Notes: generated by a model from the sequence alone, not told the origin. A DNA stretch of 64,000 nt from Flavobacteriales bacterium (GCA_016704485.1 JADJAA010000001.1:1554824-1618823), one strand, 5' to 3'. Counted from the stretch's first letter, positions 1,820 to 43,362 are shown. Translations and numbers: made by a program.

Positions 1820-3292
1820 TTAAAGCACTACTTGCTGAAGAACCCCTAACACCTCCACCATCGCAAGCGTATCCATCTTGCAATAGGCCAACAGGTCGGT
1901 CCGCAGTTGGGGTACGTTGCCGGTGTAGGTGCCGCTGGCGAGTTGCGTGAAGCGCAGACTGGCGGTGCCGCCTTCCTGCACGTTGAGGGTCTTGTAACTG
2001 AGTGTTGGCACTAAGGCAGGGAGTACCGTCTTGATGCCGTACTTGCCGTTCATTTGCGGGGCGTAGTACCAACCGTGTCTGAAGGCATCCATCAGGTCCT
2101 TGATGCGCGGTAGTAGTTGCTGGATGGCTGGTGCATGGTGTGGAAGGTCGCGCGCTAGATCGCGCAGCACCATGCGTTCGAAGGTTGCGTTGTACGCGAG
2201 GATGTCGCCCGTTGGACCAATGTCCTTGAGCAATTGCTGCACGAGTGCTTCGCGTGGATCGCTGGTGCCATCCGCTAGGAACTCATGGTGCGTTGCCGGT
2301 GCACTTGGTGCGGACTGCACATGCAAGCTGTATTGGAAGGGCATCTGCTGGAACGGACGTGTGCCGTCATAGAGCGGTATGCTCGGCATCATTGTCTCGA
2401 AATCGAAATGATGCACCGGGTATTCCAGCGCCGCCAACCACTGGTGTAGCGGTTCGTGCTGGATGTGTCCTTCGCCACTTTTCCATGCATTCACTTGCCG
2501 ACGTTGTGCAGCGCTGAGCTTTTCATTTTCCGGAATGTCCACCAGCTTCAGGATGCCCCGTTGGTACAACGACCATTTCTGTTCAGTAGCACCTGTTAGC
2601 TCGAATACCGACCGCTCCGGAATGTGCAACCAACAGTGTGGTTTGAAGTCGCACGGGTAGGGTGCATCGCATTGCGGACCAATGTCGACAACGGGTGCTT
2701 GCTCTTGTTGCACCACCTGTTTCAGCGCTTCGATGCGCGCGGGTATCGCCGCTTGCTCACGCAGTACCTCCGCAAGTACGGAGGTGCGGTTGAAGAGCTG
2801 CTGCACATCCACCGCGCCCTGTTTCACATAGCTGTTGTTCAAGTACACAATGCTGACATCCGCCAACGCGATGCTGCCCGAGATGACATAGTACTGCAAC
2901 GCAGCATCCTGCACATACACATCCTTCACGCCTGTGCTGCCTTTCACTTCAAATGCTTTCCATCCCTCGGCCGTATGCACCAGCAGGTCCAACGCGGCCA
3001 ACACACCGTCGCGCATGAACGCCGCTTCGTAGATCACCCGCTCACCGCGCGCAATGGCCGCTGCGGTATCCACCACGCTCTGCGCGAACTCGAACGGCGA
3101 AGGCGGCGCACAGTCCACTCCTCCTGGAAAAAGCTGCTGCGCCATCAACCCTACCGACGTGCCCGAATCAAAGATGGCCTGCTGCTGCGCACCGATGGGT
3201 GGCAACAGATCGCGCCGGTGCTTGTACAACCACAACGCCTTGGGACATTGCTTGCCCCGCATGTACGTGCTTTTGGAGAGTAGGTGGGACAT
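1820..3292 (-). CDS. DUF2779-type protein: Cas4/RecB-like PD-(D/E)XK nuclease with Cys cluster plus C-terminal DEDD-exonuclease-like half
   Basis: 490-aa ORF starting at ATG 3292. Nuclease core LDLLVHTAEGWKAFEVKGS. Cysteines at QCPKALW and CDAPYPCDFKPHCW. C-terminal HHFDFET...AYNATFE motifs. Confidence 0.75.
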   Translation of the reverse strand: MSHLLSKSTYMRGKQCPKALWLYKHRRDLLPPIGAQQQAIFDSGTSVGLMAQQLFPGGVDCAPPSPFEFAQSVVDTAAAIARGERVIYEAAFMRDGVLAALDLLVHTAEGWKAFEVKGSTGVKDVYVQDAALQYYVISGSIALADVSIVYLNNSYVKQGAVDVQQLFNRTSVLAEVLREQAAIPARIEALKQVVQQEQAPVVDIGPQCDAPYPCDFKPHCWLHIPERSVFELTGATEQKWSLYQRGILKLVDIPENEKLSAAQRRQVNAWKSGEGHIQHEPLHQWLAALEYPVHHFDFETMMPSIPLYDGTRPFQQMPFQYSLHVQSAPSAPATHHEFLADGTSDPREALVQQLLKDIGPTGDILAYNATFERMVLRDLARDLPHHAPAIQQLLPRIKDLMDAFRHGWYYAPQMNGKYGIKTVLPALVPTLSYKTLNVQEGGTASLRFTQLASGTYTGNVPQLRTDLLAYCKMDTLAMVEVLGVLQQVVL

Positions 3293-3469
3293 GGGGGAGA
3301 ACTGATAGCACGCTCTCCGGGTCGGGGCCCGGAGTGACAGAGTTTAAAGGTGGGATAAACGCAGATAGAAATAGTGAAGGAGAGACCGCGTTCGCTGTCT
3401 TTTGCGAGGCAAGGAGGCTAGGCTCGAAAGCACGTTGTGAATGGTGAACGCACTTGTAGTCCCTCTGCG

Positions 3470-3814
3470 CTACTCGGTATCGATCTTCTTTGGTTCCTTC
3501 ACCGGTTCAGCGGTGCCGGTACCGGTCTCCTTATGCTCGAAGATGAAGTTCAACGGACTCAGTTGCTCTGCTGCAACTGCCACTTCCTTTTGTTGCACCA
3601 CAGCTTTTTCGCCGGTGCCATAGGTTACGTGTACCATGTGATCGCCAACGGGTGCATTGTGCATGAAGGGCGTGCCGGCCACTACTTCACCAACGGCGGT
3701 GCTGTCCACCATCACCTGGGCGTTCACGTTGGACATGACCAGGATCTTGCCGGTGGTCTGCGCTTGGATGAGCGAAGAAAGGAAAACGGTAATGATGATA
3801 ATGGAAGTGCGCAT
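3470..3814 (-). CDS. Small secreted protein, PEGA-like beta-sandwich
   Basis: Track ORF 3470-3859. The internal ATG at 3814 gives the signal peptide MRTSIIIITVFLSSLIQAQ. The mature part reads VMVDSTAVGEVVAGTPFMHNAPVGDHMVHV. Confidence 0.55.
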   Translation of the reverse strand: MRTSIIIITVFLSSLIQAQTTGKILVMSNVNAQVMVDSTAVGEVVAGTPFMHNAPVGDHMVHVTYGTGEKAVVQQKEVAVAAEQLSPLNFIFEHKETGTGTAEPVKEPKKIDTE

Positions 3815-3928
3815 CGGTTGAAATTTTGCGTGGTTTGGTTCCGGTATTTCGGTTGGCATGTCCGAACTTATCGGAATGCGGAGGTGAAGGTATAGTGTAT
3901 GATCACCATCTGCGGTTGGGAGATCGTG

Positions 3929-5674
3929 TTACTGCACCACCACGCTCAAGGTCCGCACGCGTTCACCTGCACGCACCACCACTAGGTAGCGACCTGCTGC
4001 GGCATCGGGCAACTGGATGGCTTGGCTCGGCGTGTTGCGCTGCTGTCCGCTCCAACACACCTTGCCACTTGCATCGAATACGTTGATGCTCGCTTGGTGC
4101 ATGTCCGATGGAAGCACCAAGTTGAAGCGCCCGGTGTTCGGATTCGGAAAGGCGATGATCATCTCCGCATCGACTTCCTCGTTGAGTGCAGTGATGACCA
4201 ACATGTAATCAGTAGTGAGCGTGCAGCCCGTTGCGGTGGTGACGGTAACACTGTATTGCCCACCTGTTGCAGCCACCACGAAAGGGGCGTCCGAGCCGGG
4301 CAAGGGTACGCCGTTCAGGCTCCACGCGTAGCTCTCGAAATCGCCTTGAACCAACAGCACTTGTCCGCTTGCTTCAATGGTGACCGATGGACACACCACG
4401 ATGGTATCGCTGTTAGCAGTACAGCCGAATGCATTCGTTGCAACACCCCACCACAAGCCGGTGCTATCCGTGGGAACGCAAGGGCCGTTCACGTTGGGCA
4501 CCGTGTCGCCGTTGTTGTACCAGACGTAGGTCAACGGAATGGTATCCGTGGCGCAGAGCAATGCTGCGGCGGTGTCATAGCTCGTGGAAAGTTGGGGTAC
4601 AGGGAACACACGGACCGTATCCGTATCGGTGAAGACCAATTGCGGTACCACGGAAATGGTGAGGCTGCCGAAGGTGCCGTTGCCCAACGCGAAAGGTACT
4701 ACGCCATTGCTGCCGGTCGGGATGTTGAACGTGCCGAGGTCATCGTCCTGGCTCACGGGATCTTCATCGAAGAAGGCGATCGAATACGGTGGGTTCGCTA
4801 AGAGGTGGCCCACATCGTTCCAGGTCATGCTCGTGCTGTTGTCTCCAGTGCCACTCGTGGTGCTGTTGCCGTTGCCATCGGTGAGCACGTAGTACAGATC
4901 CGGATCGCCCGTGCACGCACCGAAGAGCGATGGTTCCTCTACATCGCCGCACCAATTGTCGCTCACGCCGCCCAGCACTACATCGTTAAGTACGAAGCCG
5001 CCGATCGTTGTGGTGAGCGCTACCACATGATCGCCCGGCGTATCAAAACTTGCGCTCGGCGTGGCACTGTTGCTCGTGTTCCCGTTGCCAAGGTCCCACG
5101 CATAACTTGTGGGTGCCGGAGCGCCATCGAGCAACGCGGTGAACTGCACATCGGCACTTCCGCATCCGCTGCTGGGTGTGAATGTGAAACTTGCATTTCC
5201 ACCACTGCCCGCTTGCACTACCAACGTGACACCAAACGTCTGCGACACGTTCAACGTGAAACCGCTCGCTTCCACCTGTGCAATGATGTTGATCGCGATG
5301 GTGTACGTGCCACTTCCAATGGGTGTGCCGCACAGCCGCGCGCAACCATACTGGTTCACCTGCGGATAGTAGATGCCCAACGGTTCGTTCGACGTAAGCT
5401 CCATGCCGAAGGGCACCCCCGTGACACTGGTGATCGTCATCTGCAAAAAGTTGACGTTCATTCCCGTTCCCGGATCGGTGAAGTTGGCCGGTAACCAAAA
5501 GGTGATGTCGCTTGCATACGCTTCACCTGCCGTAGCATCGGGTGGTTGCAACGGACACAGGGTAGGGTAGGCCGGCGTGGCAAAACAAGTGGCATCGATC
5601 GCGCAGCTGATGCATTGCGCGTGTACGCTGCCCAACGCGAGCAGCGCAATAGTGAGGAGGAGTGTTCGGATCAT
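3929..5674 (-). CDS. T9SS-secreted surface protein with PKD-like domain and C-terminal type A sorting domain
   Basis: ATG at 5674 gives MIRTLLLTIALLALGSVHAQ. PKD-like segment: FTFTPSSGCGSADVQFTA...YAWDLGNGNTS. The C-terminus IIAFPNPNTGRFNLVL...GRYLVVVRAGERVRTLSVVVQ is typical of Por_Secre_tail. Confidence 0.8.
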   Translation of the reverse strand: MIRTLLLTIALLALGSVHAQCISCAIDATCFATPAYPTLCPLQPPDATAGEAYASDITFWLPANFTDPGTGMNVNFLQMTITSVTGVPFGMELTSNEPLGIYYPQVNQYGCARLCGTPIGSGTYTIAINIIAQVEASGFTLNVSQTFGVTLVVQAGSGGNASFTFTPSSGCGSADVQFTALLDGAPAPTSYAWDLGNGNTSNSATPSASFDTPGDHVVALTTTIGGFVLNDVVLGGVSDNWCGDVEEPSLFGACTGDPDLYYVLTDGNGNSTTSGTGDNSTSMTWNDVGHLLANPPYSIAFFDEDPVSQDDDLGTFNIPTGSNGVVPFALGNGTFGSLTISVVPQLVFTDTDTVRVFPVPQLSTSYDTAAALLCATDTIPLTYVWYNNGDTVPNVNGPCVPTDSTGLWWGVATNAFGCTANSDTIVVCPSVTIEASGQVLLVQGDFESYAWSLNGVPLPGSDAPFVVAATGGQYSVTVTTATGCTLTTDYMLVITALNEEVDAEMIIAFPNPNTGRFNLVLPSDMHQASINVFDASGKVCWSGQQRNTPSQAIQLPDAAAGRYLVVVRAGERVRTLSVVVQ

Positions 5675-5739
5675 GGTGCAATGGCCTGCCCGAAGATCGG
5701 GTTCGGCGGGGGAAGATACTAGGATACAGCGCCCTTCGT

Positions 5740-6642
5740 TCATCGTGTTCTCCGGAGCCGAGAAGGCTCTTCAGACGTTGGCTCTTCGCCCCCGCGCAGA
5801 CCGTGCGCATCGCGCTCATCCAGAGTCCATTTGGGTTTGGCGGTCTTCAATCGCTTTTCCACTTTCTTAATGTGTTCGGCAGGTGGAATGTTCTCCGGTA
5901 GTGTGCCACCAATACGACGGATGGCATCACGCACCTCCTTGCCTACTGACTCGTGTGTGCGTATTGCCTGCTGATCCCCATGCACACCTTCCCGGGCCAA
6001 TTTGTCACGGGTCTGCGTCATGCGGAATTGGTTCGCAGCGAGTTCGGTTGCGTTCATGCGGTCCAGCAATTGCTCTTTGCCAGGGATGCCCTTGCGCTGT
6101 TTGATCTGTGCGTTACCAATACCTCCGTAGAGCCCTTTGTAACCAGCATCGTGGAATACACCGAACATGCGCCCGTTCACCCCAGCCTGTTGTGCAGCAC
6201 CGCTCAATGCTTTGAATTCTTCGGCTGTTTGCTTGCGAATTTGCAGCCGTTCTTTGTCTGCGGCCAATTGGTCATTCACTTCTTGGCGTCTCGCTTGCAC
6301 AACAAAATACTGCTGCGCTAAGGCGATCTCCGGCTTGCGAGGGTCGCCGTTGATGGCGATTAGATAGCAGGCGAATCGGGAGAGGTGGAAATCGGCCAAC
6401 TGGCGCTCACTGCCCGATCCAAGAGGGACCATTTTGCCGGCGCCGGCAAAATGGTCGGTCGGCTCATTCCCTGACTCTCTACACGCATCTTGTGCCCGTT
6501 TGATGGCCTGTTCAAATCGCCGCCATTGGTCATAACCTAACAACGGTTGCAGCGCTCTGGCACTCCAGAACTCGGCACCATGTGAATTGACCTGCTTCAG
6601 TTCTTCGAAGCTGGGCGGGGTAGGGTTCGGTAACTCACTCAT
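5740..6642 (-). CDS. dinD: DNA damage-inducible protein D family
   Basis: 300 aa. The N-terminus GAEFWSARALQPLLGYDQWRRFEQAIKRAQDACRESG...LSRFACYLIAINGDPRKPEIALAQQYFVVQ matches the conserved DinD layout as I remember it. Confidence 0.75.
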   Translation of the reverse strand: MSELPNPTPPSFEELKQVNSHGAEFWSARALQPLLGYDQWRRFEQAIKRAQDACRESGNEPTDHFAGAGKMVPLGSGSERQLADFHLSRFACYLIAINGDPRKPEIALAQQYFVVQARRQEVNDQLAADKERLQIRKQTAEEFKALSGAAQQAGVNGRMFGVFHDAGYKGLYGGIGNAQIKQRKGIPGKEQLLDRMNATELAANQFRMTQTRDKLAREGVHGDQQAIRTHESVGKEVRDAIRRIGGTLPENIPPAEHIKKVEKRLKTAKPKWTLDERDAHGLRGGEEPTSEEPSRLRRTR

Positions 6643-6849
6643 TCTGCTGACCGCTTTCTCGTCAACGCGGTTTGCACAATATACAGGCTTTGGACCAACA
6701 AATGAAGCTAACTACAATCCTCTAAAACCTTAATTCAGGAGCCGACCGCTTCGGCGTCTCCACAATCACAATGATCTCACAAATTGCCTACCTTTCATAG
6801 CGGTGTATTTGTAGATGAGGGTGGCATGGTGCAACCAAGATGAGGGAAC

Positions 6850-9003
6850 TTGAACGATCTTCGACCCGAACTAGCGCCCAATGTTACTAGCGCCCCACAA
6901 ACCCATGGATCCTGTCCTATGCGCACCTTAGAGGAAGATGCCTTGCGCTTGTTGCGGAGTTCGGTAGGGGATACCAAGGCCACCTTCAGGGAAGGTCAAC
7001 TGGAAGCCATCGTCGCCCTGGTCCGTGAGCGAAAGCGCTTGCTGGTGGTGCAATGTACCGGCTGGGGCAAGAGCAATGTGTATTTCATCAGTGCGAAGTT
7101 GCTGCGCGAAAAAGGGCATGGACCCACCGTTATCGTTAGTCCGCTATTGGCTTTGATGCGCAACCAATTGCAGGCCGCAGCGCGCATGGAGCTGAAGGCT
7201 ATCACCATCAACAGTGCCAACACGGATGAATGGGAGACGCTGCAAGAGCAGGTGGTATCCGGTGAAGCCGATGTGCTCCTGATCAGTCCGGAACGACTGG
7301 CCAACGAACGTTTTATCGCCGAGGTGCTGTTGCCCATCGCTGGACGCATCGGCATGCTCGTGGTGGACGAAGCGCATTGCATCAGCGATTGGGGGCACGA
7401 TTTCCGGCCCGACTATCGGCGCATCATCGCGATCCTGAAACAACTGCCTGCCAACCTACCGGTACTGGGTACAACCGCCACTGCCAACCAACGCGTGGTG
7501 GACGATCTGAAGGTGCAACTTGGCGACCTCACCATACAACGTGGGACCTTAGTGCGTGACAGTTTGATGCTCGATGCTGTGCAACTCCCCGACCAAGCCG
7601 CACGCCTCGCTTGGCGGACGCACTACCTGCCCCTGCTCCCCGGATCCGGTATCGTGTACACCCTTACCGTGCGCGATGCGGAGCGCGTTGCCGAATGGTT
7701 GCAACAGAACGGGATCGAAGCAAGGGCCTACCATGCCTCCGTCGTTGATACCGAAGATGGCGATCTGCGCGAGCGCTTGGAGCAGCAACTGCTCGATGGA
7801 AGCATCAAGGCCTTAGTTGCCACCACGGCACTCGGCATGGGCTACGACAAGCCCGACCTGGGTTTCGTGATCCACTTCCAAGCTCCCGGCTCCATCATCG
7901 GCTACTACCAACAAGTGGGGCGCGCCGGAAGGGCGATCGAGAAGGCCTACGGGATACTCCTACATGGCGAAGAAGATGCTGAGATCCATGCCTACTTTCA
8001 AGAGAACGCTTTCCCGAACGAGTCGAATGTGCTGCAGATACTGAAGACTTTAGAAGGTGGCAACGGTCTTTCCATCCGGCAACTGGAGCCGACCATGAAC
8101 CTGCGCTACGGGCAGTTGGAACAGGCCTTGAAATTCCTGAGCATGGAGGACCCTGCGCCGGTGGTGTTGCAGGACCATCTGTGGAAGCGCACACCGGTGG
8201 CCTACACCTTGGACCATGCGCACATCCAGCGCCTCATGGAACTACGAGAGCGCGAACGTGAGCAAGTTGTGGCCTACGTGCAACACACTGGCTGCCGCAT
8301 GGAATTCCTTCAACAGGCCTTGGATGATGTCGTGCATGCACCCTGTGGACATTGCGCCAATTGCTTGGACAAGCACTTCAAGGCGGACATGCCCCCAGCG
8401 GAAGTGGCCCGCGCGGCTACCTTTCTGCGCAGCGCGGAGATGGTACTCACCTGTCCGAAGGCACTACCCGCAGGTGGCTTGGATGCGCTCGACATTAAGG
8501 GCAACATACCGCTGGAGTTGCGCCCGCAGCCCGGAAGGATCCTCTGCCGTTGGGGCGACTCCGGTTGGGGCAAGTTGGTGGCGCAACAGAAGCACGACGG
8601 ACACTTCAAAGACGAACTCGTCCACGCCCTTGCCGAAATGGTGAACGAGCGCTGGTGTCCGGATCCGCCCCCAATGTGGGTGACCTGTGTGCCCTCCCTT
8701 CGCCATCCGGAATTGGTTCCCGATCTTGCACGCCGATTGGCCGCCAAGTTGGAACTTCCGTTCCACAACGTGGTGGAAAAGACCCGCCAGAACGAGGCGC
8801 AGAAAGCCATGCAGAACCGCTACCACCAGTGCCATAACCTCGATGGCGCCTTCGCCATCGGTACGGTGCCCGAAGGGCCTGTGCTATTGGTGGACGATGT
8901 GGTGGATTCCGGCTGGACCATTGCCATTCTTTCGGCACAACTGCTACAGGCCGGTTGTACCTTGGTGTACCCTATCGCACTAGCAAGCACCTCCCATACC
9001 TGA
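6850..9003 (+). CDS. RecQ-family helicase fused to a C-terminal ComFC-like phosphoribosyltransferase domain
   Basis: Walker A VVQCTGWGKSNVYF. RecQ DEAH box VVDEAHCISDWGHDFRPDY. Motif VI QQVGRAGR. Zn-Cys cluster CRMEF...CGHCANC. C-terminal RYHQCHNLDGAFAI...VLLVDDVVDSGWTIA (ComF/PRPP-binding signature). Start is TTG 6850 or ATG 6919. Confidence 0.85.
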   Translation: MNDLRPELAPNVTSAPQTHGSCPMRTLEEDALRLLRSSVGDTKATFREGQLEAIVALVRERKRLLVVQCTGWGKSNVYFISAKLLREKGHGPTVIVSPLLALMRNQLQAAARMELKAITINSANTDEWETLQEQVVSGEADVLLISPERLANERFIAEVLLPIAGRIGMLVVDEAHCISDWGHDFRPDYRRIIAILKQLPANLPVLGTTATANQRVVDDLKVQLGDLTIQRGTLVRDSLMLDAVQLPDQAARLAWRTHYLPLLPGSGIVYTLTVRDAERVAEWLQQNGIEARAYHASVVDTEDGDLRERLEQQLLDGSIKALVATTALGMGYDKPDLGFVIHFQAPGSIIGYYQQVGRAGRAIEKAYGILLHGEEDAEIHAYFQENAFPNESNVLQILKTLEGGNGLSIRQLEPTMNLRYGQLEQALKFLSMEDPAPVVLQDHLWKRTPVAYTLDHAHIQRLMELREREREQVVAYVQHTGCRMEFLQQALDDVVHAPCGHCANCLDKHFKADMPPAEVARAATFLRSAEMVLTCPKALPAGGLDALDIKGNIPLELRPQPGRILCRWGDSGWGKLVAQQKHDGHFKDELVHALAEMVNERWCPDPPPMWVTCVPSLRHPELVPDLARRLAAKLELPFHNVVEKTRQNEAQKAMQNRYHQCHNLDGAFAIGTVPEGPVLLVDDVVDSGWTIAILSAQLLQAGCTLVYPIALASTSHT

Positions 9004-10633: not shown

Positions 10634-10663
10634 GGTATTTGATGTTGACCAGCCTTTACCCTG

Positions 10664-30909: not shown

Positions 30910-30971
30910 GCAACGGGGGTCAAAGTAAGCGGTGGAGGGTTATGGTGTAGATGTGTTTGCAGGTTATGATC

Positions 30972-35327: not shown

Positions 35328-35348
35328 GTGTGCCCCTCATTTGAATGG

Positions 35349-35384
35349 AACGACCCCGCTGTTTTTGCTGGGTCGTTTTTTTTG
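35349..35384 (+). terminator. Rho-independent terminator
   Basis: AACGACCC (35349-35356), 13-nt loop, GGGTCGTT (35370-35377), followed by a T run. Confidence 0.7.
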
Positions 35385-35457
35385 CTGGGGGGCGCGAGAG
35401 ACGAGCTTCCATTCTTGCAGACCATGGATCAATGGGCATTGGATGGAATGTAAATTG

Positions 35458-36426: not shown

Positions 36427-36434
36427 TGAAGAGC

Positions 36435-38822
36435 TCAGTTGTTCAGGCGCCAGGAAGCATCCGTTAAAGCCTCTATTATCTTCTTAGTGGGTTTGGGAAA
36501 TCGTACGTTGGTCGGTGACTTCATCAAGTGCTCATCGATCAGCCTCAACAAGTACATATCACGCCGACTACTACCGAGAATGCTCTTTCTGTTGAGTCGT
36601 TCATGTAGATCCTTCAGTTGTGCCTTACCCGAATCATCTAACGCCGATGCCTTCGCTATGAGGTTGTAATAGCGGTCAAAGAATTCAGCTGTGCGCGGGT
36701 CCAGGGTTGTACTTAATCCGAATAATTCTGAGGTAAGGAGCTGGTCGGAACGTAAGCCAGCCGGCGAATCCATGTCGTCGTGTACTGTAGCCATGGAAGG
36801 GTCGTCCACATTTCTCTTGACCAATGCTACTTCACCAGCACCCAGCCCATGCAGGCATAGTGGCTCATGGGTGCTCGCGATGAATTGGATAAGCGGAAAT
36901 GTCTGTTCCAATCTTCTTAAGATGCTCATGCGCCAACTCGGGTGCAGATGTGCACCGATCTCATCAATTAGTACCACGCCTCTAATTTGATGCGTATCCG
37001 TTGGATTGCCTGCCATTATATCACAGGCTAGACCAACCATGGTCTTGTAACCCGCACTAAAATGCTTTAAGCGGGTGAATGACCCGTTCACGAAAAGCCC
37101 GAATTGTGTTGGCTTGTTGTTTTCAAATTGAAAGTCGAGACGTGTAGAATTATCTGTAAGATCCAGCAGGTCCTTCAAGGCCACACAAACATCGAAGAAC
37201 TGCTGTTGATTCTTTACCACTATGGTACGTAACCACTCTTCGGCATCTACCATGGGATAGAACGGGTCAAAGAGGTTCTGGATGTTCTTATTCACTCCCC
37301 TTTTCTCTAACAGATCAGAACTCTTGCCTTTTTGCGGCAGCAATCGAACAGGCCCGTATGCACGAAGAAATATATTCGGGACCTCACCTTGCTCCCATTT
37401 TAATCCGCTATTCGTGATGTTCACTACGATAGGATCTGTTCGCTGATGAAAGTAGACTTCAATTCTACCTGACGTAGCTCCACGCCTCAAGCTAGTGCTG
37501 AAATGCTCCTTCATCTTACTCAAGGCTTTCTTGCCGCTGAGTATCAATGCAAGTGCTTCGAGCAGCGAACTTTTTCCTGACCCGTTCTCACCCAGCAGCA
37601 TTTTCCAACCGCTGTGTCGAAAGGTTTCCTGTTGTGGAGATTCGGAGCCGTTTTCGTCGATCGTCTTCCGGCGTTCCTCTTGATTGCCTCCCGCTGTTTC
37701 CGTGTTCAAGTCTAAGTTCAGTTCACGTTCTGTGTCTACTAGGTCTTTCGGGCGTTCTTGGGGGATCAAGAATACAGCCTTCTCGAAGATCCTGTAATTC
37801 TCAACTATTAATTTGCTAATGGTCAGCGCTTGATGCGCGACTTTCTCCTTGGACGGCGCATTCTCTGTGGCGGTTTTCGGAGGAGTTCTTTGCGCCTCGG
37901 AACTCGTCTTCTTTGGAGACTCCTTATTAGCGCGTGTTGATCCCGGTTTCGTACGCGCTCCGGTCTCAGCTTCTAATAAGGACCCAGGCTTATTGAGCCC
38001 TTTGCTTATTGTTTCGACGTGCAGGCCGTCGCCTTGAATGAGGATTTTTAGTCCGAAGTCCTCCTTAAGAACATGGTTACTCAGATTCCGCATTGGACTT
38101 TGCGGGTCTATCAGTCCTTTCAAGAAGTGATCTTCTTCTACGGTTCGAGGTAGTTTCTCACCCTTTTTTTTAAGAACCAGAGACTTTGTCAAGTCGCGAA
38201 CTCGGTGAACCATATCACTCCTTCTATTGATGGCGGATTTCCGGTTCAGGTCCAGAGTTTCAATGGTCACCTCGGCTCGTCGCTTCTGCATGTGCCCTAA
38301 AGTGGAACGAGGCTTTATCATTCCATTAGATGAATAGTCGAAGTACTCCTCCGGATCGTCTTCATAAGGATTCAGCAAATACGGTTCTTCTTTCTCGAGC
38401 GCACTCCCCCGAGGCTGGTCATCAGCATGCTTGATAGGAACACGTTTTCCGGCGATGGGAAACTGTGCTCCCTTTGCAAAACTGCACTCATTGCATATGG
38501 GTAGCATGTTCTGCCAATCAAACAATAGCCACCAATAGTGGTCGCCAACCTGCTCATTTGGTTCCACTTTTACCGGTCGGTACAGGTCGATGTGTACCGT
38601 CTTTTCATTCAAGGGTGCTTCGCAATACGCACATGCATTATTGGAGGTTTCCAGAAGATCTCGGTTTACATCACGAGAATACTGTGGAGCCTTGTGTCTT
38701 ATCTGGCTTCGCTTCTCTAAAGGTTGCGCATAAAACTTCCGAAGTTCATTGAACGTCTTCTCTCCTTCCGTACTGTACTGTAGGTCTGGTGGAGATACTT
38801 TACTTCGGTTCAGTTTTCTCAT
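36435..38822 (-). CDS. Fusion of a PtuB-like (HNH-derived) N-terminal domain to a PtuA/AAA_15-type ABC-like ATPase
   Basis: N-terminus NNACAYCEAPLNEKTVHIDLYRPVKV...WQNMLPICNECSFAKG. Low-complexity linker (KPGSTRANKESPKKTSSEAQRTPPKTATENAPSKEK). Walker A LLGENGSGKSSLLEAL. Walker B VVLIDEIGAHLHPSW. FIASTHEP. Confidence 0.75.
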   Translation of the reverse strand: MRKLNRSKVSPPDLQYSTEGEKTFNELRKFYAQPLEKRSQIRHKAPQYSRDVNRDLLETSNNACAYCEAPLNEKTVHIDLYRPVKVEPNEQVGDHYWWLLFDWQNMLPICNECSFAKGAQFPIAGKRVPIKHADDQPRGSALEKEEPYLLNPYEDDPEEYFDYSSNGMIKPRSTLGHMQKRRAEVTIETLDLNRKSAINRRSDMVHRVRDLTKSLVLKKKGEKLPRTVEEDHFLKGLIDPQSPMRNLSNHVLKEDFGLKILIQGDGLHVETISKGLNKPGSLLEAETGARTKPGSTRANKESPKKTSSEAQRTPPKTATENAPSKEKVAHQALTISKLIVENYRIFEKAVFLIPQERPKDLVDTERELNLDLNTETAGGNQEERRKTIDENGSESPQQETFRHSGWKMLLGENGSGKSSLLEALALILSGKKALSKMKEHFSTSLRRGATSGRIEVYFHQRTDPIVVNITNSGLKWEQGEVPNIFLRAYGPVRLLPQKGKSSDLLEKRGVNKNIQNLFDPFYPMVDAEEWLRTIVVKNQQQFFDVCVALKDLLDLTDNSTRLDFQFENNKPTQFGLFVNGSFTRLKHFSAGYKTMVGLACDIMAGNPTDTHQIRGVVLIDEIGAHLHPSWRMSILRRLEQTFPLIQFIASTHEPLCLHGLGAGEVALVKRNVDDPSMATVHDDMDSPAGLRSDQLLTSELFGLSTTLDPRTAEFFDRYYNLIAKASALDDSGKAQLKDLHERLNRKSILGSSRRDMYLLRLIDEHLMKSPTNVRFPKPTKKIIEALTDASWRLNN

Positions 38823-38823
38823 C

Positions 38824-40638
38824 TTAACTATGTGCTATTCTGTGGAACGTGTTCGCCAAATAGTGCTTCGGGTTAGTCCTGGCGATCAGGTCGAATTGTG
38901 CTTCGCTCAGGCCGGCCAGCATATTGGCATAGAGCTCCTTTTCTGATAGGTGGTTCCTCACGACAAAAAAGTCTGTACCGAACAGGACCCGTTCACCGAG
39001 TTTCTTCACTGAATGGTCGATCGTCTTTTTCAGTAACGGTTGTATCCACGGATCGTGCAATATGTAACTGATATCTGCATAAACGTTCTCATAGCGCAAC
39101 ATCATACTGCAAATGATCGTGTACCAGTCAGCTTCCATCCAGTGAGCGTAGACACGTGTCCATTGGATGCGCTTGTGTTCGTTGTCATAATACGATCGAT
39201 GAAATAATCCGCTTTCAGCATGCAGGTTCAGATCTTGGTTGTACTGGTCATTATCGGCTTCTAAATGTCGTTTCCATTCATCAACACCACCAAAATGTGC
39301 CAAGCAGATCTTCAATTGAGAAAGTGATCGGAATTTTTCATCGGGACCTTTTTCGAACAACGTTTGAATTCGGGGTTGGCAGCTCACGAGGTGCTCCCTC
39401 AAGAGGTCATCATCCAGCAGGCAGAGGTAGTTCAATGGATGTGTGTAGTTCTTTTGAAAGTCGATTCCGCGAAGTTCCAACAGGTCAATGGGTGCGATCA
39501 CCGTATCGTCATGTGCGTCCTCTATTCCGGTTGAACGCTTGAAGACAGGATGCTTTGCCATTTCATCAGTGATCTTGTCTCGGGAATATATTGTGCCATG
39601 CACGCAATGGGTCATGATCGGTAAACCTTCCTGAGCTGCATACGCCCACACGGGCAATAGGTCTTCATCGAAAGGATAATAACCTAAAGCCGGGTAGATC
39701 TTGAATCCGCAGCAACCATTGCTTAGATACTTCTGGACTTTACATTCAAGCAAGACTACTTTACCGTATTCTACTTTCCACTTGAAGAAGTCATCCTCTT
39801 CACGAATTCGGCGTGGATCAATGAAGATGAAAGGCAGTATTTGATGTCCATGATCTTCACCTTTGGTAAGTTTTACAAGCCCTTCCATTTGTTTGTGGAA
39901 ATCACCTAATCGGTGGACCTTCCCCGCACCCATGTATTTCATATCCATTGGTAGAACAATGAATTTGGTTTCGGCTGGGTACTGGGCCCGGAGTTTTTGA
40001 AAGAGTAGACTTAGTCGCCTTTGGTCATCACCGGTTTTCGCACTTTTCGTCTCGTAACCATAAGAGCTGAAGCGTGCGATAAGTACGTATCGCTCCAAAA
40101 GGTCCATGTACTCCGTAGCAGGAAAGCTCTTGATCATTGGAACAAACTTTTGTAGAAGGAACCAGATCTGTCTTCGAACGGCTGGGATGAATGCAATAAT
40201 TGCTGCTACGAATATGGTCTTGATCGCCCAGTGTAATTCATGAAAGTATAATTTATACTTTACAAGTAACGCCAAGAACGCCGCGATATATTTCGACCCG
40301 CCATAGAAGGTGCTTTCAACCAAAACTTCATAAAGGAATAATAACACATAGATCGTAACGATCAAATTAAACGCACCTCGTACAAACTTCAAGAAGCTGT
40401 TTCGTTGGATCCTGTTCTGCGCCTTTACCTTGTTTATGCGTATGGTTTCTTGTGCCGGTTCATACCGCTCGGCATACTTCCGTCGGTTGCACTTCACGTA
40501 AAGTTTCATGAAGTAATCCATTCGCGCCCACTTGTACAACGGCCACGGAAGAATACCCTTTGCATGCTCTGGAGGCACGTGATAGTTGTTGAACAAGTGC
40601 ACGTGGCAGTTCACTATGGGGTCCTTCACTTTACTCAT
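38824..40638 (-). CDS. Amidohydrolase-superfamily (Amidohydro_2-like TIM barrel) protein with an inserted block of about 3 TM helices
   Basis: Metal ligand candidates: VNCHVHLF, GFKIYPALGY, IMTHCVHG, CLAHFGG, LFGTDFFV. A hydrophobic insert at about aa 85-165 (FLKFVRGAFNLIVTIYVLLFLY, YIAAFLALLV, IKTIFVAAIIAFIPAV). Its stop is 1 nt from the ATPase start. Confidence 0.7.
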   Translation of the reverse strand: MSKVKDPIVNCHVHLFNNYHVPPEHAKGILPWPLYKWARMDYFMKLYVKCNRRKYAERYEPAQETIRINKVKAQNRIQRNSFLKFVRGAFNLIVTIYVLLFLYEVLVESTFYGGSKYIAAFLALLVKYKLYFHELHWAIKTIFVAAIIAFIPAVRRQIWFLLQKFVPMIKSFPATEYMDLLERYVLIARFSSYGYETKSAKTGDDQRRLSLLFQKLRAQYPAETKFIVLPMDMKYMGAGKVHRLGDFHKQMEGLVKLTKGEDHGHQILPFIFIDPRRIREEDDFFKWKVEYGKVVLLECKVQKYLSNGCCGFKIYPALGYYPFDEDLLPVWAYAAQEGLPIMTHCVHGTIYSRDKITDEMAKHPVFKRSTGIEDAHDDTVIAPIDLLELRGIDFQKNYTHPLNYLCLLDDDLLREHLVSCQPRIQTLFEKGPDEKFRSLSQLKICLAHFGGVDEWKRHLEADNDQYNQDLNLHAESGLFHRSYYDNEHKRIQWTRVYAHWMEADWYTIICSMMLRYENVYADISYILHDPWIQPLLKKTIDHSVKKLGERVLFGTDFFVVRNHLSEKELYANMLAGLSEAQFDLIARTNPKHYLANTFHRIAHS

Positions 40639-40766
40639 TTTTGATCCAGTGCGTACTGATCACTTATAGAGATCTTATGATGCCAGTACTATCGGTCAGA
40701 AATGCATTGACTTGCCACCACATTATTGTGATGGCTCATGGTCGAATGGAACGTAAATCTGTGGAG

Positions 40767-41864
40767 TTAAGAATTAGGTACTATCTGCACACCAAACCGG
40801 AACTGGAAATTCTTCTTCACGAAATCATCTCCGGAATACCAATTAGCCACTATTCGAACGACGCTATTCAATGCTAAACCTGCGCTGAATTGCCAAAGAT
40901 CGATACCTCCCTCTGACGTACGATCAAGATTATGCCAAAAAACAGCATTTCCACTTATGTGAGAATAGCGCACTTGACCAAAAAGAGCCATGCGATCCTT
41001 AATCCCAGTAAGTGAAAATACCATTTCTGCACCATTATCAAAGTTTTGGCCAACGACATTTGTGTCTACCCCGATCTTAGGAAGATCGAAGGATAATCGA
41101 GGTGCATAATGCAAGCGAATGGACAATCGACGGTTCAGTGAGGTAAATCCGACAATTGGCACACCGAAATTCAAAACCCCGTTTCCGCCACCGCCAAGAA
41201 TACGTTGCACCTGATCTTGGAAAGTGGCGCTGGAGTCTGAAACTGGCACTGTATCTGGCTCACTCGTCTTGTTGCTGATCAGCGCACCAAAACCCATTCG
41301 CACTGGTCCGAAATAATCATAAACAACCTCCGAGTATAGAGATGCTTTCTGTGCTTGCCCACTATACGTGAGGAGATTATTCTTTAGGAGTTTTCCCCGT
41401 TCCTCTTCAGAACTGAAACCATCGTAGAAATATTCCGTCGCAATTCGCCGGACCGCCAAGCCATAAAGCCCTTCTGTTACATCCGGATCGAACCGGATGC
41501 GCAACAATTCTTCTCTGTACGACTGGAAATCCTGCCTTCGCTGTCGATATGCGGCTTTCAGTGAATCGATCAGTTCTTTTGAATCGGCGGAGCGGTCATT
41601 ATCCAGTGCTTGGAACGAAGCTCTTCGGAATGCTTGTTTGTGTTTCTTGTTTTCGGCTCGATCGTCTTTCAAAAATGCATATACACTCTTTACTTGTATT
41701 GACGAATCAGACGGTTCAAGGAATTTATTCAGTTCAACTTTTGTTAAGTCTATGTTGCTTTTCCGAGACTCACTGTTTGGAAAAACAAATGGCCCCGTTT
41801 GTGCGAACATTGTGCATGAGGTTGAAAGCAGGAATATCGCAATTGTTGTTCGTCTCATTGTCAT
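40767..41864 (-). CDS. Secreted/outer-membrane protein of unknown function (beta-barrel-like C-terminal half)
   Basis: Signal peptide MTMRRTTIAIFLLSTSCTMFAQ. The C-terminal region has alternating hydrophobic residues and ends FQFRFGVQIVPNS. Confidence 0.6.
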   Translation of the reverse strand: MTMRRTTIAIFLLSTSCTMFAQTGPFVFPNSESRKSNIDLTKVELNKFLEPSDSSIQVKSVYAFLKDDRAENKKHKQAFRRASFQALDNDRSADSKELIDSLKAAYRQRRQDFQSYREELLRIRFDPDVTEGLYGLAVRRIATEYFYDGFSSEEERGKLLKNNLLTYSGQAQKASLYSEVVYDYFGPVRMGFGALISNKTSEPDTVPVSDSSATFQDQVQRILGGGGNGVLNFGVPIVGFTSLNRRLSIRLHYAPRLSFDLPKIGVDTNVVGQNFDNGAEMVFSLTGIKDRMALFGQVRYSHISGNAVFWHNLDRTSEGGIDLWQFSAGLALNSVVRIVANWYSGDDFVKKNFQFRFGVQIVPNS

Positions 41865-41884
41865 ATACTTTTCAGTTCAATTAT

Positions 41885-42676
41885 TTAGACTTCTACACCA
41901 TAAGATTCCGTGAACGCCGCTTCAGCGTATGATTTGCTGGCGTAAGCAAACCCTTTGTCTCCCCACAGAGTGGTTCCCCAACTGTTTCGCACGATGAAAT
42001 GATCAGGCGTGTATCCGACAATAGAGACAGCGTGGCCACCTAGGTTGTCGCTGGCACGGTAGCGCGCTAGTTTGCCCCGTGTCTCTTTCGCATCCATAAA
42101 GGCGTTGTCACAGTTCAGCCGGGTGAGAATGGGGCCTTTGTTGGCGATCCAGCGCCGCCATTCATTCAGGTCTTGGCCTAATGAGAAGTAGCGCATCACC
42201 TTCAACTGCGCAGCAATCGCGTAGAACACATCGGTCTCATCCGGATAGAGTATTCCGCGACCGAAAGGCAACACGCTATCCAGCACTGCGCCGTATTTGC
42301 GCGATACATCGAGTGCTGCTTTCAGACTGGTTCCATCGCTTTCAATGAATGAGGTTGGTTTGTCGGTGAATTCATCGATCTCCTTTGCGGCCATCCATGT
42401 AAAGCGCGTGCTAAGCCTACGGTTGGTGGCGATCCTTCCGGCTTTTGCGAAATGCCAACGCAGCACACCTTCGGCGCAAGCCCAGCCAACGCACGAGCCG
42501 GTACTTCCTTGGTCGCCAATGGTCCACCAATCTTCTCGCAAGTCTTTTTTAGGCGGAGGTGGTGCTGGTGCGCGTAGTGCGCCAGCGGCACGTGCTGTGT
42601 GCAAGTTCCAATCGTTTGCGGTGTTCAATGAAGGAAGGCAATTGAGGACGCGGGGAGGTGATTTCTTTGTTGCCAT
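41885..42676 (-). CDS. Papain-like C1-family cysteine peptidase (no signal peptide seen)
   Basis: Catalytic motifs DQGSTGSCVGWA (Cys), GGHAVSIVGY (His) and VRNSWGTTLWGDKGF (Asn). Confidence 0.8.
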   Translation of the reverse strand: MATKKSPPRVLNCLPSLNTANDWNLHTARAAGALRAPAPPPPKKDLREDWWTIGDQGSTGSCVGWACAEGVLRWHFAKAGRIATNRRLSTRFTWMAAKEIDEFTDKPTSFIESDGTSLKAALDVSRKYGAVLDSVLPFGRGILYPDETDVFYAIAAQLKVMRYFSLGQDLNEWRRWIANKGPILTRLNCDNAFMDAKETRGKLARYRASDNLGGHAVSIVGYTPDHFIVRNSWGTTLWGDKGFAYASKSYAEAAFTESYGVEV

Positions 42677-42708
42677 TTTTTTGAGGAATTTGTTGACTTA
42701 AGCTTCGT

Positions 42709-43362
42709 TCATGCGCTCCACCGCCACCCCAACACATCACTCGCCGGGTAACTACTTACACAAACACTATTACTCTGATTACCGCCTAACACCATGATGC
42801 CGGTACCGCGCGTTTCGAGGTAGAAGGCCACATGGCCACTGGTGGTGCTGTTGCCGCGTTTGAAGACTGCGATGCATCCGGGAACGGGCTCGTTAATTTT
42901 TTTGCCCCATTGCAACCAGCTGCGAGCGGCGGCGGAGTTGGTGCCGCGCAAGTTTGCTTTGGTGATGCACCAGTTAACGAATGACGAGCACCATGCCACC
43001 TCATCGGTGGTTGCTTTGAGACCTGTAGTACTGTGGTATTCAATTATGCGCTGGTTATGCTCAGGACCTGGATATTCCTTAACACCGATCTCTGCACGGG
43101 CGATCTTCAACCAAGCAGGCTCATCTATCGGTGGAGCGGTGGCAACCGGTTCGATGTAGGTGGTGCTTACCCAACCGGTAAGTGTGCCATCGCGCAATTT
43201 TGCGCTCACTTGCGCCCAACCATTCCGCGGTCCTTGCAAGAGGTCCAATGCGGTATGCTGCGGTAGGCGACCGATGATGGATCGATTGGTACTTGGGCCT
43301 TCGCGAAGGCGAAGTACAGAGGCGGTGGTGCGGTGAGTTGGCATGGTGTTTCGTTCGAACAA
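42709..43362 (-). CDS. SH3b domain + TIGR02594/CHAP-like cell-wall amidase
   Basis: N-terminal SH3_3-like LRLREGPSTNRSIIGRLPQHTALDLL...GWAQV. C-terminal EVAWCSSFVNWC (Cys) and TSGHVAFY (His). Alternative start ATG 43344. Confidence 0.75.
   Translation of the reverse strand: MFERNTMPTHRTTASVLRLREGPSTNRSIIGRLPQHTALDLLQGPRNGWAQVSAKLRDGTLTGWVSTTYIEPVATAPPIDEPAWLKIARAEIGVKEYPGPEHNQRIIEYHSTTGLKATTDEVAWCSSFVNWCITKANLRGTNSAAARSWLQWGKKINEPVPGCIAVFKRGNSTTSGHVAFYLETRGTGIMVLGGNQSNSVCVSSYPASDVLGWRWSA

What the first reader, a model, noticed from the sequence alone, without database searches (positions are those of the whole stretch)
1820..43362. Unusually dense defence and nucleic-acid-conflict island (about 40 kb)
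The following lie back to back: DUF2779 nuclease, DinD, RecQ-PRTase/DprA, the Exo-RecQ-UvrD giant, GmrSD-like type IV enzyme, Type I R-M, the WYL/rSAM/HK/REC module, the repeat locus, the Septu-like cassette, and the peptidase/amidase trio. They are interleaved with gene remnants (cyclase and hsdS fragments) and show compositional heterogeneity. I saw no integrase, tRNA or conjugation genes, so the mobility mechanism is unclear. The only transposase (IS1182) lies outside the island at 50.6-52.4 kb.
Basis: partly seen in the sequence, partly recalled or inferred. Interest (0 to 1): 0.5.

Follow-up and report, generated by a model that had tools for sequence, protein, structure and literature searches.

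The report
Chromosomal phage-defence island, swapped between strains
This roughly 40 kb stretch is a real but fairly ordinary "defence island" in an uncultured wastewater bacterium: a chromosomal hot spot packed with anti-virus systems, missing from the sister species and partly exchanged between strains, and it contains one conserved gene module that nobody seems to have described.

Summary
Pfam and PADLOC find a PDC-S13/Bro-N ("DinD"-like) gene, PsyrTA, a GmrSD-like gene next to a 1610-aa Exo?-RecQ-UvrD protein, a complete Type I R-M, a WYL/B12-radical-SAM/histidine-kinase/receiver module, and Septu. There is no integrase, tRNA or conjugation gene.

The window is about 99.7-99.9% identical to Flavobacteriales MAGs from activated sludge, and more than 20 independent assemblies carry the same gene order. 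The closest other species (L002) has only a 428-nt scar where window 3,815-46,859 lies, so the region is accessory.

Conspecific strains with at least 99.8% identical flanks replace the inner 26 kb (17,520-43,497). One strain has Type IIG R-M, DarTG and PDC-S19 there. Another has a PLD nuclease, an SNF2 helicase and other genes.

Corrections:
- DUF2779 is conserved in the sister species, and both its sides vary.
- The cyclase is intact in other assemblies.
- The peptidase trio has no defence hit.
- The "Type I M/S" genes and the "WYL/rSAM/HK/REC" genes form one conserved 6-7-gene unit. Its core is a catalytically degenerate methyltransferase plus target-recognition domain fused to a genuine histidine kinase, paired with a receiver protein.

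The island is a known kind of feature. The module is the part that looks new.

The parts
1..1266 (-). 3' part of a 524-aa T9SS-sorted protein (runs off the window's left end). This side of DUF2779 is also variable.
   Evidence: Gene call in L001. In the ~95%-identical relative L092, this gene and the cyclase fragment are replaced by a Bro-N-like gene and two-component genes, before the conserved RND-efflux OEP gene.
1396..1782 (-). Cyclase C-terminal fragment (gene remnant).
   Evidence: Pfam Guanylate_cyc positions 97-182 only. 71% aa identity to the end of the cyclase at 21999-23375.
1820..3292 (-). DUF2779 protein (weak Cas4-like N-terminus). It acts as a conserved anchor, not as part of the variable cargo.
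   Evidence: Pfam E 5e-42. 82% nt identity in L002. In more distant relatives its upstream neighbours are other defence genes.
3470..3814 (-). 114-aa small protein gene with an apparent signal-peptide-like N-terminus. It is the last gene conserved with the sister species on the left.
   Evidence: 69% nt match to L002 19911-20201. Homology ends exactly at its start codon.
3815..46859 (.). Region absent from sister species L002 (43,045 nt). L002 has a 428-nt scar in its place.
   Evidence: blastn of L002 against the window. L002 keeps only the last 35 codons of the response-regulator gene.
3929..5743 (-). PKD + Por_Secre_tail (T9SS cargo) protein, with a 90-nt indel and a SNP cluster between assemblies.
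   Evidence: Pfam. Indel at 4516-4605 relative to L001. SNPs at 4460-4515.
5740..6642 (-). Bro-N / DinD-like protein = PADLOC candidate PDC-S13.
   Evidence: PADLOC E 4e-110, Pfam Bro-N E 7e-8.
6919..10223 (+). PsyrTA: PsyrT (RecQ-type helicase + PRTase) at 6919-9003 and PsyrA (DprA/SLOG-like) at 9003-10223.
   Evidence: PADLOC E 5e-287 and 1e-124, both full length. Pfam. GC 59-62%.
10436..17519 (-). Probable operon: GmrSD-like gene (15720-17519), 47-aa ORF (15553-15696), 1610-aa DnaQ-like?-RecQ-UvrD protein (10664-15496), 59/65-aa ORF (10436-10633).
   Evidence: Pfam, PADLOC, NCBIfam and PDB hits. The block is kept intact in strain variant L118.
17520..43497 (.). Strain-variable core (about 26 kb), replaced by other cassettes in conspecific assemblies.
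   Evidence: L118 is 99.8% identical up to 17520 and unrelated beyond it. L122 is 99.9% identical from 43497 onward and unrelated before it.
17621..21079 (-). HsdR, Type I restriction subunit (DUF4145 + HSDR_N + ResIII + Helicase_C + EcoEI_R_C).
   Evidence: PADLOC REase_I E 3e-160 over the full length. Pfam.
21241..23375 (+). Class III nucleotide cyclase, about 711 aa, frameshifted in this window only.
   Evidence: Pfam E 7e-56; PycC only 1e-15. Intact at 700-711 aa in other assemblies. Three 1-nt indels at 21314, 21953 and 22033.
23477..33354 (-). Conserved 7-gene unit:
- WYL: 32344-33354
- B12 radical SAM: 30972-32234
- MTase-like + TRD + histidine kinase, 898 aa: 28213-30909
- receiver + S1/CSD-like protein, 402 aa: 27018-28226
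- HsdM: 25445-27004
- HsdS: 24303-25448
- 265-aa protein: 23477-24274
   Evidence: Same order in L113, L115 and the P0018 contig. Amino-acid identities in L113 / L115: WYL 68/-, rSAM 76/76, kinase 42/55, receiver 53/69, HsdM 78/78, HsdS 38/31, 265-aa 59/-. A distant version occurs in L130. Motifs. Structure models and fold matches.
23387..23447 (.). 61-nt inverted copy of the hsdS 3' end (24310-24370). The two copies flank the 265-aa gene.
   Evidence: blastn self-match, 85% identity.
33501..34746 (.). Non-coding repeat locus: 22-bp array (33501-33894), three ~49-nt elements (33977-34213), and 21-bp array (34292-34746).
   Evidence: Length varies between assemblies. An analogous 21/63-bp array next to a homologous small ORF occurs in L122.
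35043..35327 (+). 94-aa ORF with a terminator-like hairpin, conserved beside the repeat arrays.
   Evidence: Called in all assemblies. 78% nt identity to L122 3832-4185.
35458..38822 (-). Septu: PtuB (HNH) at 35458-36426 and PtuA (ATPase with a PtuB-like N-terminal domain) at 36435-38822.
   Evidence: PADLOC E 1e-68 and 2e-157. HNH motif visible in the alignment.
38824..41810 (-). Amidohydrolase-like 604-aa gene (1 nt upstream of ptuA) and a 347-aa unknown gene. Both belong to the same low-GC block as Septu.
   Evidence: Pfam. GC 44-45%. Homologues lie beside Peptidase_C14 genes, and in one case near a Septu pair.
41885..43344 (-). Papain-like Peptidase_C1 and SH3+CHAP cell-wall hydrolase. No defence-family hit.
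   Evidence: Pfam. PADLOC found nothing.
44092..46961 (+). 257-aa and 214-aa unknown genes plus a HisKA_3 kinase and a LuxR-type response regulator. Conserved in all strains, deleted in L002.
   Evidence: The response-regulator remnant in L002 is shown.
50712..52367 (-). IS1182-type DDE transposase, outside the island. It is an insertion absent from L002.
   Evidence: Pfam DDE_Tnp_1_6 + DUF772. Gap in the L002 alignment.

Best explanation
The region is a chromosomal defence hot spot in an uncultured activated-sludge Flavobacteriales bacterium. It is a flexible slot between conserved housekeeping neighbourhoods (an RND-efflux operon on the left; murI, OmpH and BamA on the right) that has accumulated independently acquired anti-phage cassettes.

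Shown:
- At least six recognisable systems lie here: PDC-S13, PsyrTA, GmrSD-like plus a RecQ-UvrD giant, Type I R-M, the WYL/rSAM/kinase/receiver unit, and Septu.
- 43 kb is absent from the sister species.
- The inner 26 kb is replaced by other defence cassettes in conspecific strains. The junctions are sharp, and one falls exactly at a start codon.
- GC content differs between blocks.
- There is no integrase, no tRNA and no flanking direct repeat.

Inferred:
- Cassettes are gained and swapped by homologous recombination in the conserved flanks or neighbouring genes after DNA uptake, rather than by a self-mobile element.
- Each cassette acts on its own by the mechanism known for its family: restriction of unmodified or modified DNA, toxin-antitoxin abortive infection, and ATPase-nuclease attack.
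- The M/S methylase and the degenerate-methyltransferase histidine kinase with its receiver partner work as one unit that couples DNA-sequence or methylation sensing to a phosphorelay.
For: - System calls.
- Source and independent assemblies with the same order.
- Absence in sister species L002, with a 428-nt scar and a response-regulator remnant.
- Strain variants: L118 carries Type IIG R-M (1e-59), DarT (1e-54), DarG (1e-111) and PDC-S19 (3e-61); L122 carries PLDc_2, SNF2 and other genes.
- Other lineages carry different defence genes next to DUF2779.
- GC blocks.
- No tRNA. No direct repeat of 8 nt or more at the junctions.
- Precedent: core defence hot spots in which 29-47% of occupied sites have no mobile gene (PMC10250203).
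Against: - Only one congeneric genome was available, and its state is a deletion scar, not a clean empty site. The ancestral content is therefore unknown.
- No defence function was tested for any gene.
- About 10 of 24 genes have no defence hit (PKD/T9SS protein, cyclase, peptidases, unknowns).
- The variant contigs L118 and L122 each show only one end of their alternative cassettes.
- The recombination mechanism is inferred, not observed.
Confidence: 0.85

Rival explanations
1. The block is, or recently was, a single integrative mobile element (ICE/IME, prophage remnant or satellite) that inserted as one piece and has lost its integrase.
For: - GC differs between blocks.
- A distant relative of the kinase module sits on a contig with a phage-type integrase and a VapE-like primase (L130).
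- Defence islands in E. coli are mostly carried on mobile elements (PMC10121019).
Against: - No integrase, recombinase, relaxase, T4SS or phage structural domain in any ORF.
- No tRNA in the window or in the flanks fetched.
- No shared direct repeat at the junctions.
- Strain variants exchange only internal parts and have different breakpoints.
- At least three GC classes argue for several separate acquisitions.
Confidence: 0.08
2. It is a general flexible genomic island of mixed function (surface proteins, signalling, cell-wall enzymes) in which defence genes are merely frequent. It is not a dedicated defence island.
For: The PKD/T9SS protein, the class III cyclase, Peptidase_C1, SH3-CHAP, the amidohydrolase-like gene and several unknown genes have no PADLOC hit.
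Against: - 14 of about 24 genes, covering roughly 29 of 43 kb, match defence families at E<1e-10.
- The replacement cassettes in other strains, and in other lineages next to DUF2779, are again defence genes.
Confidence: 0.1
3. The arrangement is an assembly or binning artefact of a metagenome-assembled genome.
For: - The window differs from GCA_016708985.1 by indels.
- Repeat-array lengths differ between assemblies.
Against: The same order appears with exact protein identity in 40-65 index blocks from NCBI, ENA, JGI and Logan, including contigs from 0.8 to over 2 Mb. Identity outside the repeats is at least 99.9%.
Confidence: 0.02

Closest known systems
Core defence hot spots (cDHS1/cDHS2 of Pseudomonas aeruginosa; PMC10250203)
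   Same: - A variable slot between conserved genes.
- Tens of kb in size.
- Many different immune systems in different strains, plus many unknown genes.
- A large fraction of occupied sites have no mobility gene.
   Different: - The host here is an uncultured Bacteroidota MAG population, not a set of isolates.
- No tRNA or tmRNA lies at the flank, whereas cDHS1/2 have one.
- Only three haplotypes and one sister species have been seen so far.
Defence islands on mobile elements at integration hot spots (E. coli pan-genome; PMC10121019)
   Same: Clustering of several systems, and strain-to-strain variation.
   Different: No prophage, ICE, transposon or integrase hallmark was found in or next to this island.
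Type I restriction-modification (HsdR/M/S)
   Same: Full-length R, M and S genes are present.
   Different: - hsdR is separated from hsdMS by a 265-aa gene and an opposite-strand cyclase.
- hsdMS travel with WYL, rSAM, a kinase and a receiver gene in other genomes that show no hsdR nearby and have a Tiamat-like giant instead.
Multi-gene methylation-linked defence systems with a kinase (Pgl / BREX type 2 with PglW kinase; MADS). This comparison comes from my own knowledge, apart from the PADLOC/NCBIfam mad2/mad5 hits.
   Same: A DNA methyltransferase-family component combined with a protein kinase and extra enzymes in one operon.
   Different: - The kinase here is a two-component histidine kinase fused to a catalytically degenerate Type-I-M-like domain plus TRD, with a receiver-domain partner and a B12 radical SAM enzyme.
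- Only domain-level mad2/mad5 hits were seen, weaker than the Type I hits.
- No PglZ, PglX or BrxC was found.
PsyrTA and Septu (PADLOC models)
   Same: Both genes of each pair match full length and are adjacent.
   Different: - The Septu PtuA carries an N-terminal PtuB-like domain and is translationally abutted by an amidohydrolase-like gene.
- Function was not tested.

Membership tests
Defence island / core defence hot spot | Several unrelated defence systems clustered far above the genome background | tested here: met
   Six or more systems. 14 of ~24 genes hit PADLOC at E<1e-10, against 0 of 5 right-flank ORFs scanned.
Defence island / core defence hot spot | Content varies between related genomes while the flanks are conserved | tested here: met
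   L002 lacks 3,815-46,859. L118 and L122 replace 17,520-43,497.
Integrative mobile element (ICE/IME/prophage/genomic island) | Integrase or recombinase gene | tested here: not met
   No such Pfam domain in any ORF from 1 to 50 kb. The only transposase is the IS at 50.7 kb.
Integrative mobile element (ICE/IME/prophage/genomic island) | Flanking direct repeats (att) and/or a tRNA target | tested here: not met
   No shared repeat of 8 nt or more at the junctions. No tRNA.
PsyrTA | Adjacent PsyrT (RecQ-type helicase + PRTase) and PsyrA (DprA-like) genes | tested here: met
   PADLOC E 5e-287 and 1e-124, full length. The genes abut at 9003.
Septu | PtuA ATPase plus PtuB HNH nuclease in one operon | tested here: met
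   PADLOC E 2e-157 and 1e-68. 8-nt gap between the genes. HNH cysteine/histidine motif present.
Type I restriction-modification | R, M and S subunits | tested here: met
   REase_I 3e-160, MTase_I 2e-168, Specificity_I 2e-66. R is not contiguous with M and S.
Type IV GmrSD | N-terminal DUF262 plus a C-terminal DUF1524 His-Me nuclease | tested here: inconclusive
   GmrSD_N E 3e-31. GmrSD_C only E 0.017, below the cut-off.
Pycsar | Pyrimidine cyclase with an adjacent cNMP-activated effector | tested here: not met
   PycC only 1e-15, against the generic Guanylate_cyc at 7e-56. No effector gene is adjacent.
Two-component system (for the 898-aa and 402-aa pair) | Kinase with H-box histidine and N, G1 and G2 boxes | tested here: met
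   Invariant H640, N763/H767, N799/G801 and G827/G829 in 16 sequences. Fold match to HK853, TM 0.62-0.65.
Two-component system (for the 898-aa and 402-aa pair) | Receiver fold with the acidic pocket, phospho-acceptor Asp, Thr and Lys | tested here: met
   Invariant D13, D14, D15, D57, T97 and K115 at the ends of predicted strands 1, 3, 4 and 5. Fold match to PmrA/KdpE receivers, TM 0.65-0.76. Phosphotransfer itself was not tested.
Active N6-adenine DNA methyltransferase (for the 898-aa protein) | Motif I glycine loop and motif IV (D/N)PP(Y/F) | tested here: not met
   Motif I reads DP(A/S)AD(A/S). Motif IV reads (A/I/V/K)PPF across the family, against DPSAGTCGF and NPPF in the neighbouring HsdM.
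MADS (methylation-associated defence system) | Full mad1-mad8 gene set | tested here: not met
   Only mad2 and mad5 hits to HsdM/HsdS, weaker than the Type I models. MADS2 scored 21.7 bits against a cut-off of 720.

The most novel reading that the evidence does not exclude
Window 23,477-33,354 encodes an undescribed methylation-linked immune system with these parts:
- a Type I M2S-type methylase (HsdM/HsdS);
- a sensor made of a HARE-HTH-like N-terminus, a catalytically dead M-like domain and a TRD, fused to a genuine histidine kinase;
- its cognate receiver protein with an S1/cold-shock-like output domain;
- a B12 radical SAM enzyme and a WYL regulator.

The proposed mechanism is that the dead methyltransferase reads the sequence or methylation state of DNA and reports it by phosphotransfer to the receiver protein. 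The receiver would then gate the effector, which is HsdR here and a Tiamat-like giant or a PD-(D/E)xK nuclease elsewhere.

PADLOC knows only the radical SAM gene, as candidate PDC-M51A. No paper in the searched library mentions it.
Probability: 0.45. Interest if true: 0.75.

Novelty: new member of a known kind. Interest (0 to 1): 0.5.

Why it matters
The island itself is another example of a core defence hot spot. It shows that this organisation, and cassette swapping between near-identical strains, also occurs in uncultured Bacteroidota that are common in wastewater plants. That matters for phage-host dynamics in activated sludge.

The more useful result is the conserved WYL / radical SAM / methyltransferase-like kinase / receiver / HsdMS unit. 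If it is a working system, it would join restriction-modification to two-component signalling. It would also provide a compact ~10 kb candidate with clear point mutants to test (H640 and D57).

Tried and rejected
- The metagenome scan with DUF2779 found no close relative with a clean empty site, only distant ones. Those relatives were still useful for the hot-spot test.
- The look-up of PsyrA by exact sequence failed.
- The idea that the window's 1610-aa giant is the counterpart of the ~1825-aa giants next to the module elsewhere is rejected. They share no homology beyond the P-loop, and the others are Tiamat TmtA.
- The idea that L002's T9SS-type remnant is the end of the window's PKD gene is rejected.
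- The 265-aa gene does not match L113's first small gene, but it does match the second at 59%.
- The amidohydrolase-like gene as an obligate third Septu gene is not supported. The family is large and is often beside Peptidase_C14 genes without Septu.
- Rfam over the whole window gave nothing.
- The repeat units do not occur in viral contigs. The kinase family is not found in viral contigs either.
- Literature searches for PDC-M51, PDC-S13 and the domain combination found nothing relevant. The MADS search did not return the primary MADS paper.
- A Pfam re-scan of unannotated segments at E up to 5 gave nothing for the giant's N-terminus, middle or C-terminus.

Full report
**Source of the sequence.** The window is not identical to any record. 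It is 99.6-99.8% identical to contig JADJER010000001.1 (2.15 Mb) of NCBI MAG GCA_016708985.1. It is at least 99.9% identical to many other wastewater and activated-sludge assemblies from NCBI, ENA, JGI and Logan. NCBI names these MAGs "Flavobacteriales bacterium". T9SS sorting domains in several genes fit Bacteroidota. The locus L001 extends the view 8 kb to the left of the window. It shows the rest of a T9SS cargo gene, then an RND efflux operon, MarR and a phosphatase-family gene.

**Inventory.** I scanned all large ORFs with Pfam and PADLOC, and a subset with NCBIfam. In order along the window:
- cyclase C-terminal fragment (1396-1782)
- DUF2779 (1820-3292)
- a 114-aa gene with a signal-peptide-like start (3470-3814)
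- PKD/T9SS protein (3929-5743)
- Bro-N protein = PDC-S13 (5740-6642)
- PsyrT and PsyrA (6919-10223)
- a small ORF, then the 1610-aa protein (10664-15496)
- a 47-aa ORF
- GmrSD-like gene (15720-17519)
- HsdR (17621-21079)
- a cyclase on the other strand (21241-23375)
- a 265-aa gene, HsdS, HsdM, a 402-aa protein, an 898-aa protein, B12 radical SAM (PDC-M51A) and WYL (23477-33354)
- two tandem arrays (33501-34746)
- a 94-aa ORF
- PtuB and PtuA (35458-38822)
- amidohydrolase-like gene, a 347-aa gene, Peptidase_C1 and SH3-CHAP (38824-43344)

To the right lie two unknown genes, a HisKA_3 kinase and a LuxR-type regulator (44092-46961). After them come two paralogous unknown genes, small ORFs, the IS1182-type transposase (50712-52367), DJ-1, a T9SS protein, and then murI, OmpH x2, BamA, UppS, NAD kinase and Omp85. 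There is no tRNA, no Rfam match and no integrase or conjugation domain.

"DinD" must be the Bro-N protein. The ORF at 3437-3895(+) lies opposite the conserved 114-aa gene and has no hit.

**Is it accessory?** One scan of species-representative genomes with murI found a single close relative, L002 (murI 91% aa). All other hits were at or below about 63%. L002 aligns at 82-87% with window 64000-55908 and 54171-52567. It lacks the IS. It aligns patchily through 50.6-49.0 kb, then matches 46962-46860, and only 428 nt later it matches 3814-3524 and 3296-2794.

Window 3,815-46,859 is therefore absent from L002. L002 keeps the last 35 codons of the response-regulator gene (71% aa identity) and an unrelated T9SS-type remnant. 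Its state is a deletion scar, not a virgin site. No direct repeat of 8 nt or more is shared by the two junction regions.

DUF2779 and the 114-aa gene are conserved. However, in L092 (95% nt identity over the DUF2779 3' end) the other side of DUF2779 is also different. There, a Bro-N-like gene and two-component genes lie before the conserved OEP gene, which is 93% identical at the protein level. In more distant lineages (DUF2779 59-67% identical), its upstream neighbours are again defence genes: RmrA/CapP-like, HsdR, a RecQ-like "alt Cas3" and PDC-S02. DUF2779 behaves as an anchor inside a larger flexible zone.

**Variation within the species.** Exact-protein look-ups show the window's arrangement in most assemblies. 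Two exceptions were found.
- L118 is 99.8% identical to window 664-17,520 and then diverges exactly at the GmrSD start codon. In place of HsdR and beyond, it carries a Type IIG R-M enzyme, DarT, DarG, PDC-S19, a PDDEXK_5 protein and DUF1643.
- L122 (889-kb contig) is 99.9% identical to window 43,497-56,960. To the left of that point it has a PLD-family protein, unknown genes, an fn3 protein, a tandem array, another LuxR regulator and an SNF2 helicase.

GC content supports several separate acquisitions: PsyrTA 59-62%; PtuB/PtuA/604-aa/347-aa 43-48%; the remainder 51-58%.

**Mechanism of turnover.** With no recombinase, tRNA or att repeats, and with sharp junctions next to conserved genes, the most economical reading is allelic replacement by homologous recombination in the flanks. 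This is an inference. Core defence hot spots with this behaviour are described in P. aeruginosa, where 29% and 47% of occupied sites have no detectable mobile gene (PMC10250203). In E. coli, by contrast, most islands ride on mobile elements (PMC10121019).

**One unit, not two.** The 898-aa protein has about 20 close homologue clusters and the 402-aa protein has 21. In three other genomes (kinase 35-55% identical) the order is:

(WYL) - (DUF2130) - radical SAM - ~900-aa protein - ~400-aa protein - HsdM - HsdS - small genes - a ~1825-aa protein.

The ~1825-aa protein is Tiamat TmtA and is unrelated to the window's giant.

Amino-acid identities to the window, for L113 and L115:

| Gene | L113 | L115 |
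|---|---|---|
| WYL | 68% | no hit |
| radical SAM | 76% | 76% |
| 898-aa kinase | 42% | 55% |
| 402-aa receiver | 53% | 69% |
| HsdM | 78% | 78% |
| HsdS | 38% | 31% |
| 265-aa gene | 59% | no hit |

HsdR and GmrSD have no counterpart in either locus.

An exhaustive HMMER search finds 194 cluster representatives at E<=1e-30. Most of the best 150 listed are 800-950 aa and align in one stretch across the methyltransferase-like, TRD and kinase parts. One distant member (29% identity, L130) lies in this context: WYL - DUF7255 - kinase (with a HARE-HTH N-terminus) - 299-aa receiver homologue - DUF2130 - PD-(D/E)xK nuclease - HsdM - HsdS. That contig also carries an integrase.

**Anatomy of the 898-aa and 402-aa pair.**
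- The 898-aa protein aligns with the neighbouring HsdM through motifs X, I and IV. Its motif I is DP(A/S)AD(A/S) and its motif IV is (A/I/V/K)PPF, where HsdM has DPSAGTCGF and NPPF. Methyl transfer is therefore unlikely.
- Its C-terminal third has an invariant H-box histidine (H640) and N, G1 and G2 boxes.
- The AlphaFold model (pLDDT 77) matches Type I M subunits and single-chain MTase-TRD enzymes in its first part, and HK853-type kinases at its end.
- The 402-aa model (pLDDT 82) has a receiver fold (TM 0.65-0.76 to PmrA/KdpE receivers). Invariant D13-D15, D57, T97 and K115 sit at the canonical positions.
- Its C-terminal beta domain gives weak Rho_RNA_bind and S1/CSD hits.

My reading, which is inferred, is that a DNA-reading pseudo-methyltransferase signals by phosphorelay to a nucleic-acid-binding response regulator. 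This would act alongside a real M2S methylase and a radical SAM enzyme of unknown substrate, under WYL control.

**Other components.**
- The giant protein has a RecQ core and a UvrD core. Its N-terminus shows DnaQ-like motifs (D11-x-E13, H54-N...D60, D115) and one weak PDB match at E 1.5. "Exo" is plausible but not shown.
- The GmrSD-like gene, the giant and the two small ORFs stay together in L118, so they may form one operon.
- Septu is canonical by HMM.
- The amidohydrolase-like gene abuts ptuA, but its large family lies beside caspase-like peptidases elsewhere. In one case it is 2 kb from a Septu pair.
- Peptidase_C1 and SH3-CHAP have host-like GC and no defence hit.
- The cyclase is a generic class III enzyme. 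It is intact elsewhere and carries three 1-nt indels only in this window.

**Limits.** There is one sister genome. The alternative haplotypes are seen only in part. No function was tested.

Noticed in passing
window 33501-34746; L122 2209-2616 and 1557-1585: Two non-coding tandem arrays (22 bp x 18 and 21 bp x 22) and three ~49-nt elements with the core TACCATAYTACTATAGGG lie between WYL and PtuB. The PtuB-WYL spacer ranges from 1675 to 2341 nt among assemblies of the same species. The alternative strain cassette (L122) has a different 21/63-bp array, a similar core element and a homologue (78% nt) of the adjacent 94-aa ORF. There is no Rfam hit and no match in viral contigs. Function is unknown.
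   Followed up: partly
L113 18663-22703; L115 15748-20088; P0018 contig: In three other genomes the WYL/rSAM/kinase/receiver/HsdMS unit is followed by a ~1825-aa Tiamat (TmtA)-like protein (PADLOC 2e-146 for L115) and shows no HsdR nearby. Tiamat may therefore serve as the unit's effector there.
   Followed up: partly
window 23387-23447 and 24310-24370: A 61-nt inverted repeat (85% identical) places a copy of the hsdS 3' end on the far side of the 265-aa gene, so the two copies flank that gene. This could be a relic of an hsdS shuffling arrangement, or an invertible segment.
   Followed up: no
window 4460-4605: The PKD/T9SS protein gene has a 90-nt in-frame indel relative to GCA_016708985.1, and a cluster of 7 SNPs within 56 nt relative to other assemblies. 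The surrounding 20 kb is nearly invariant.
   Followed up: no
window 55900-56727: Outside the one sister species, the closest relatives of this murI gene in species-representative genomes are mostly Chloroflexota (Anaerolineales) at 52-63% identity, level with the two other Bacteroidota hits (~60%). This could reflect horizontal transfer of murI or sparse sampling of the lineage.
   Followed up: no
window 47055-47822 and 48014-48778: Two tandem paralogous genes of unknown function, 75% nt identical, lie just right of the island.
   Followed up: no
window 50645-52567: The IS1182-type element is an insertion absent from the sister species. Several short-read contigs end at it. In L122 its transposase is called in three pieces.
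   Followed up: partly
L082 3-180, L089 4516-4808, L096 2815-2986: In more distant relatives, a stretch about 76% identical to the middle of the Bro-N/PDC-S13 gene lies about 60 nt upstream of DUF2779. The Bro-N and DUF2779 adjacency may therefore be older than the present arrangement.
   Followed up: no
window 21314, 21953, 22033: All three single-base indels that separate this window from short-read assemblies across 25 kb fall in the 5' third of the cyclase gene. This could be real decay of the gene in this strain or a local consensus error.
   Followed up: partly
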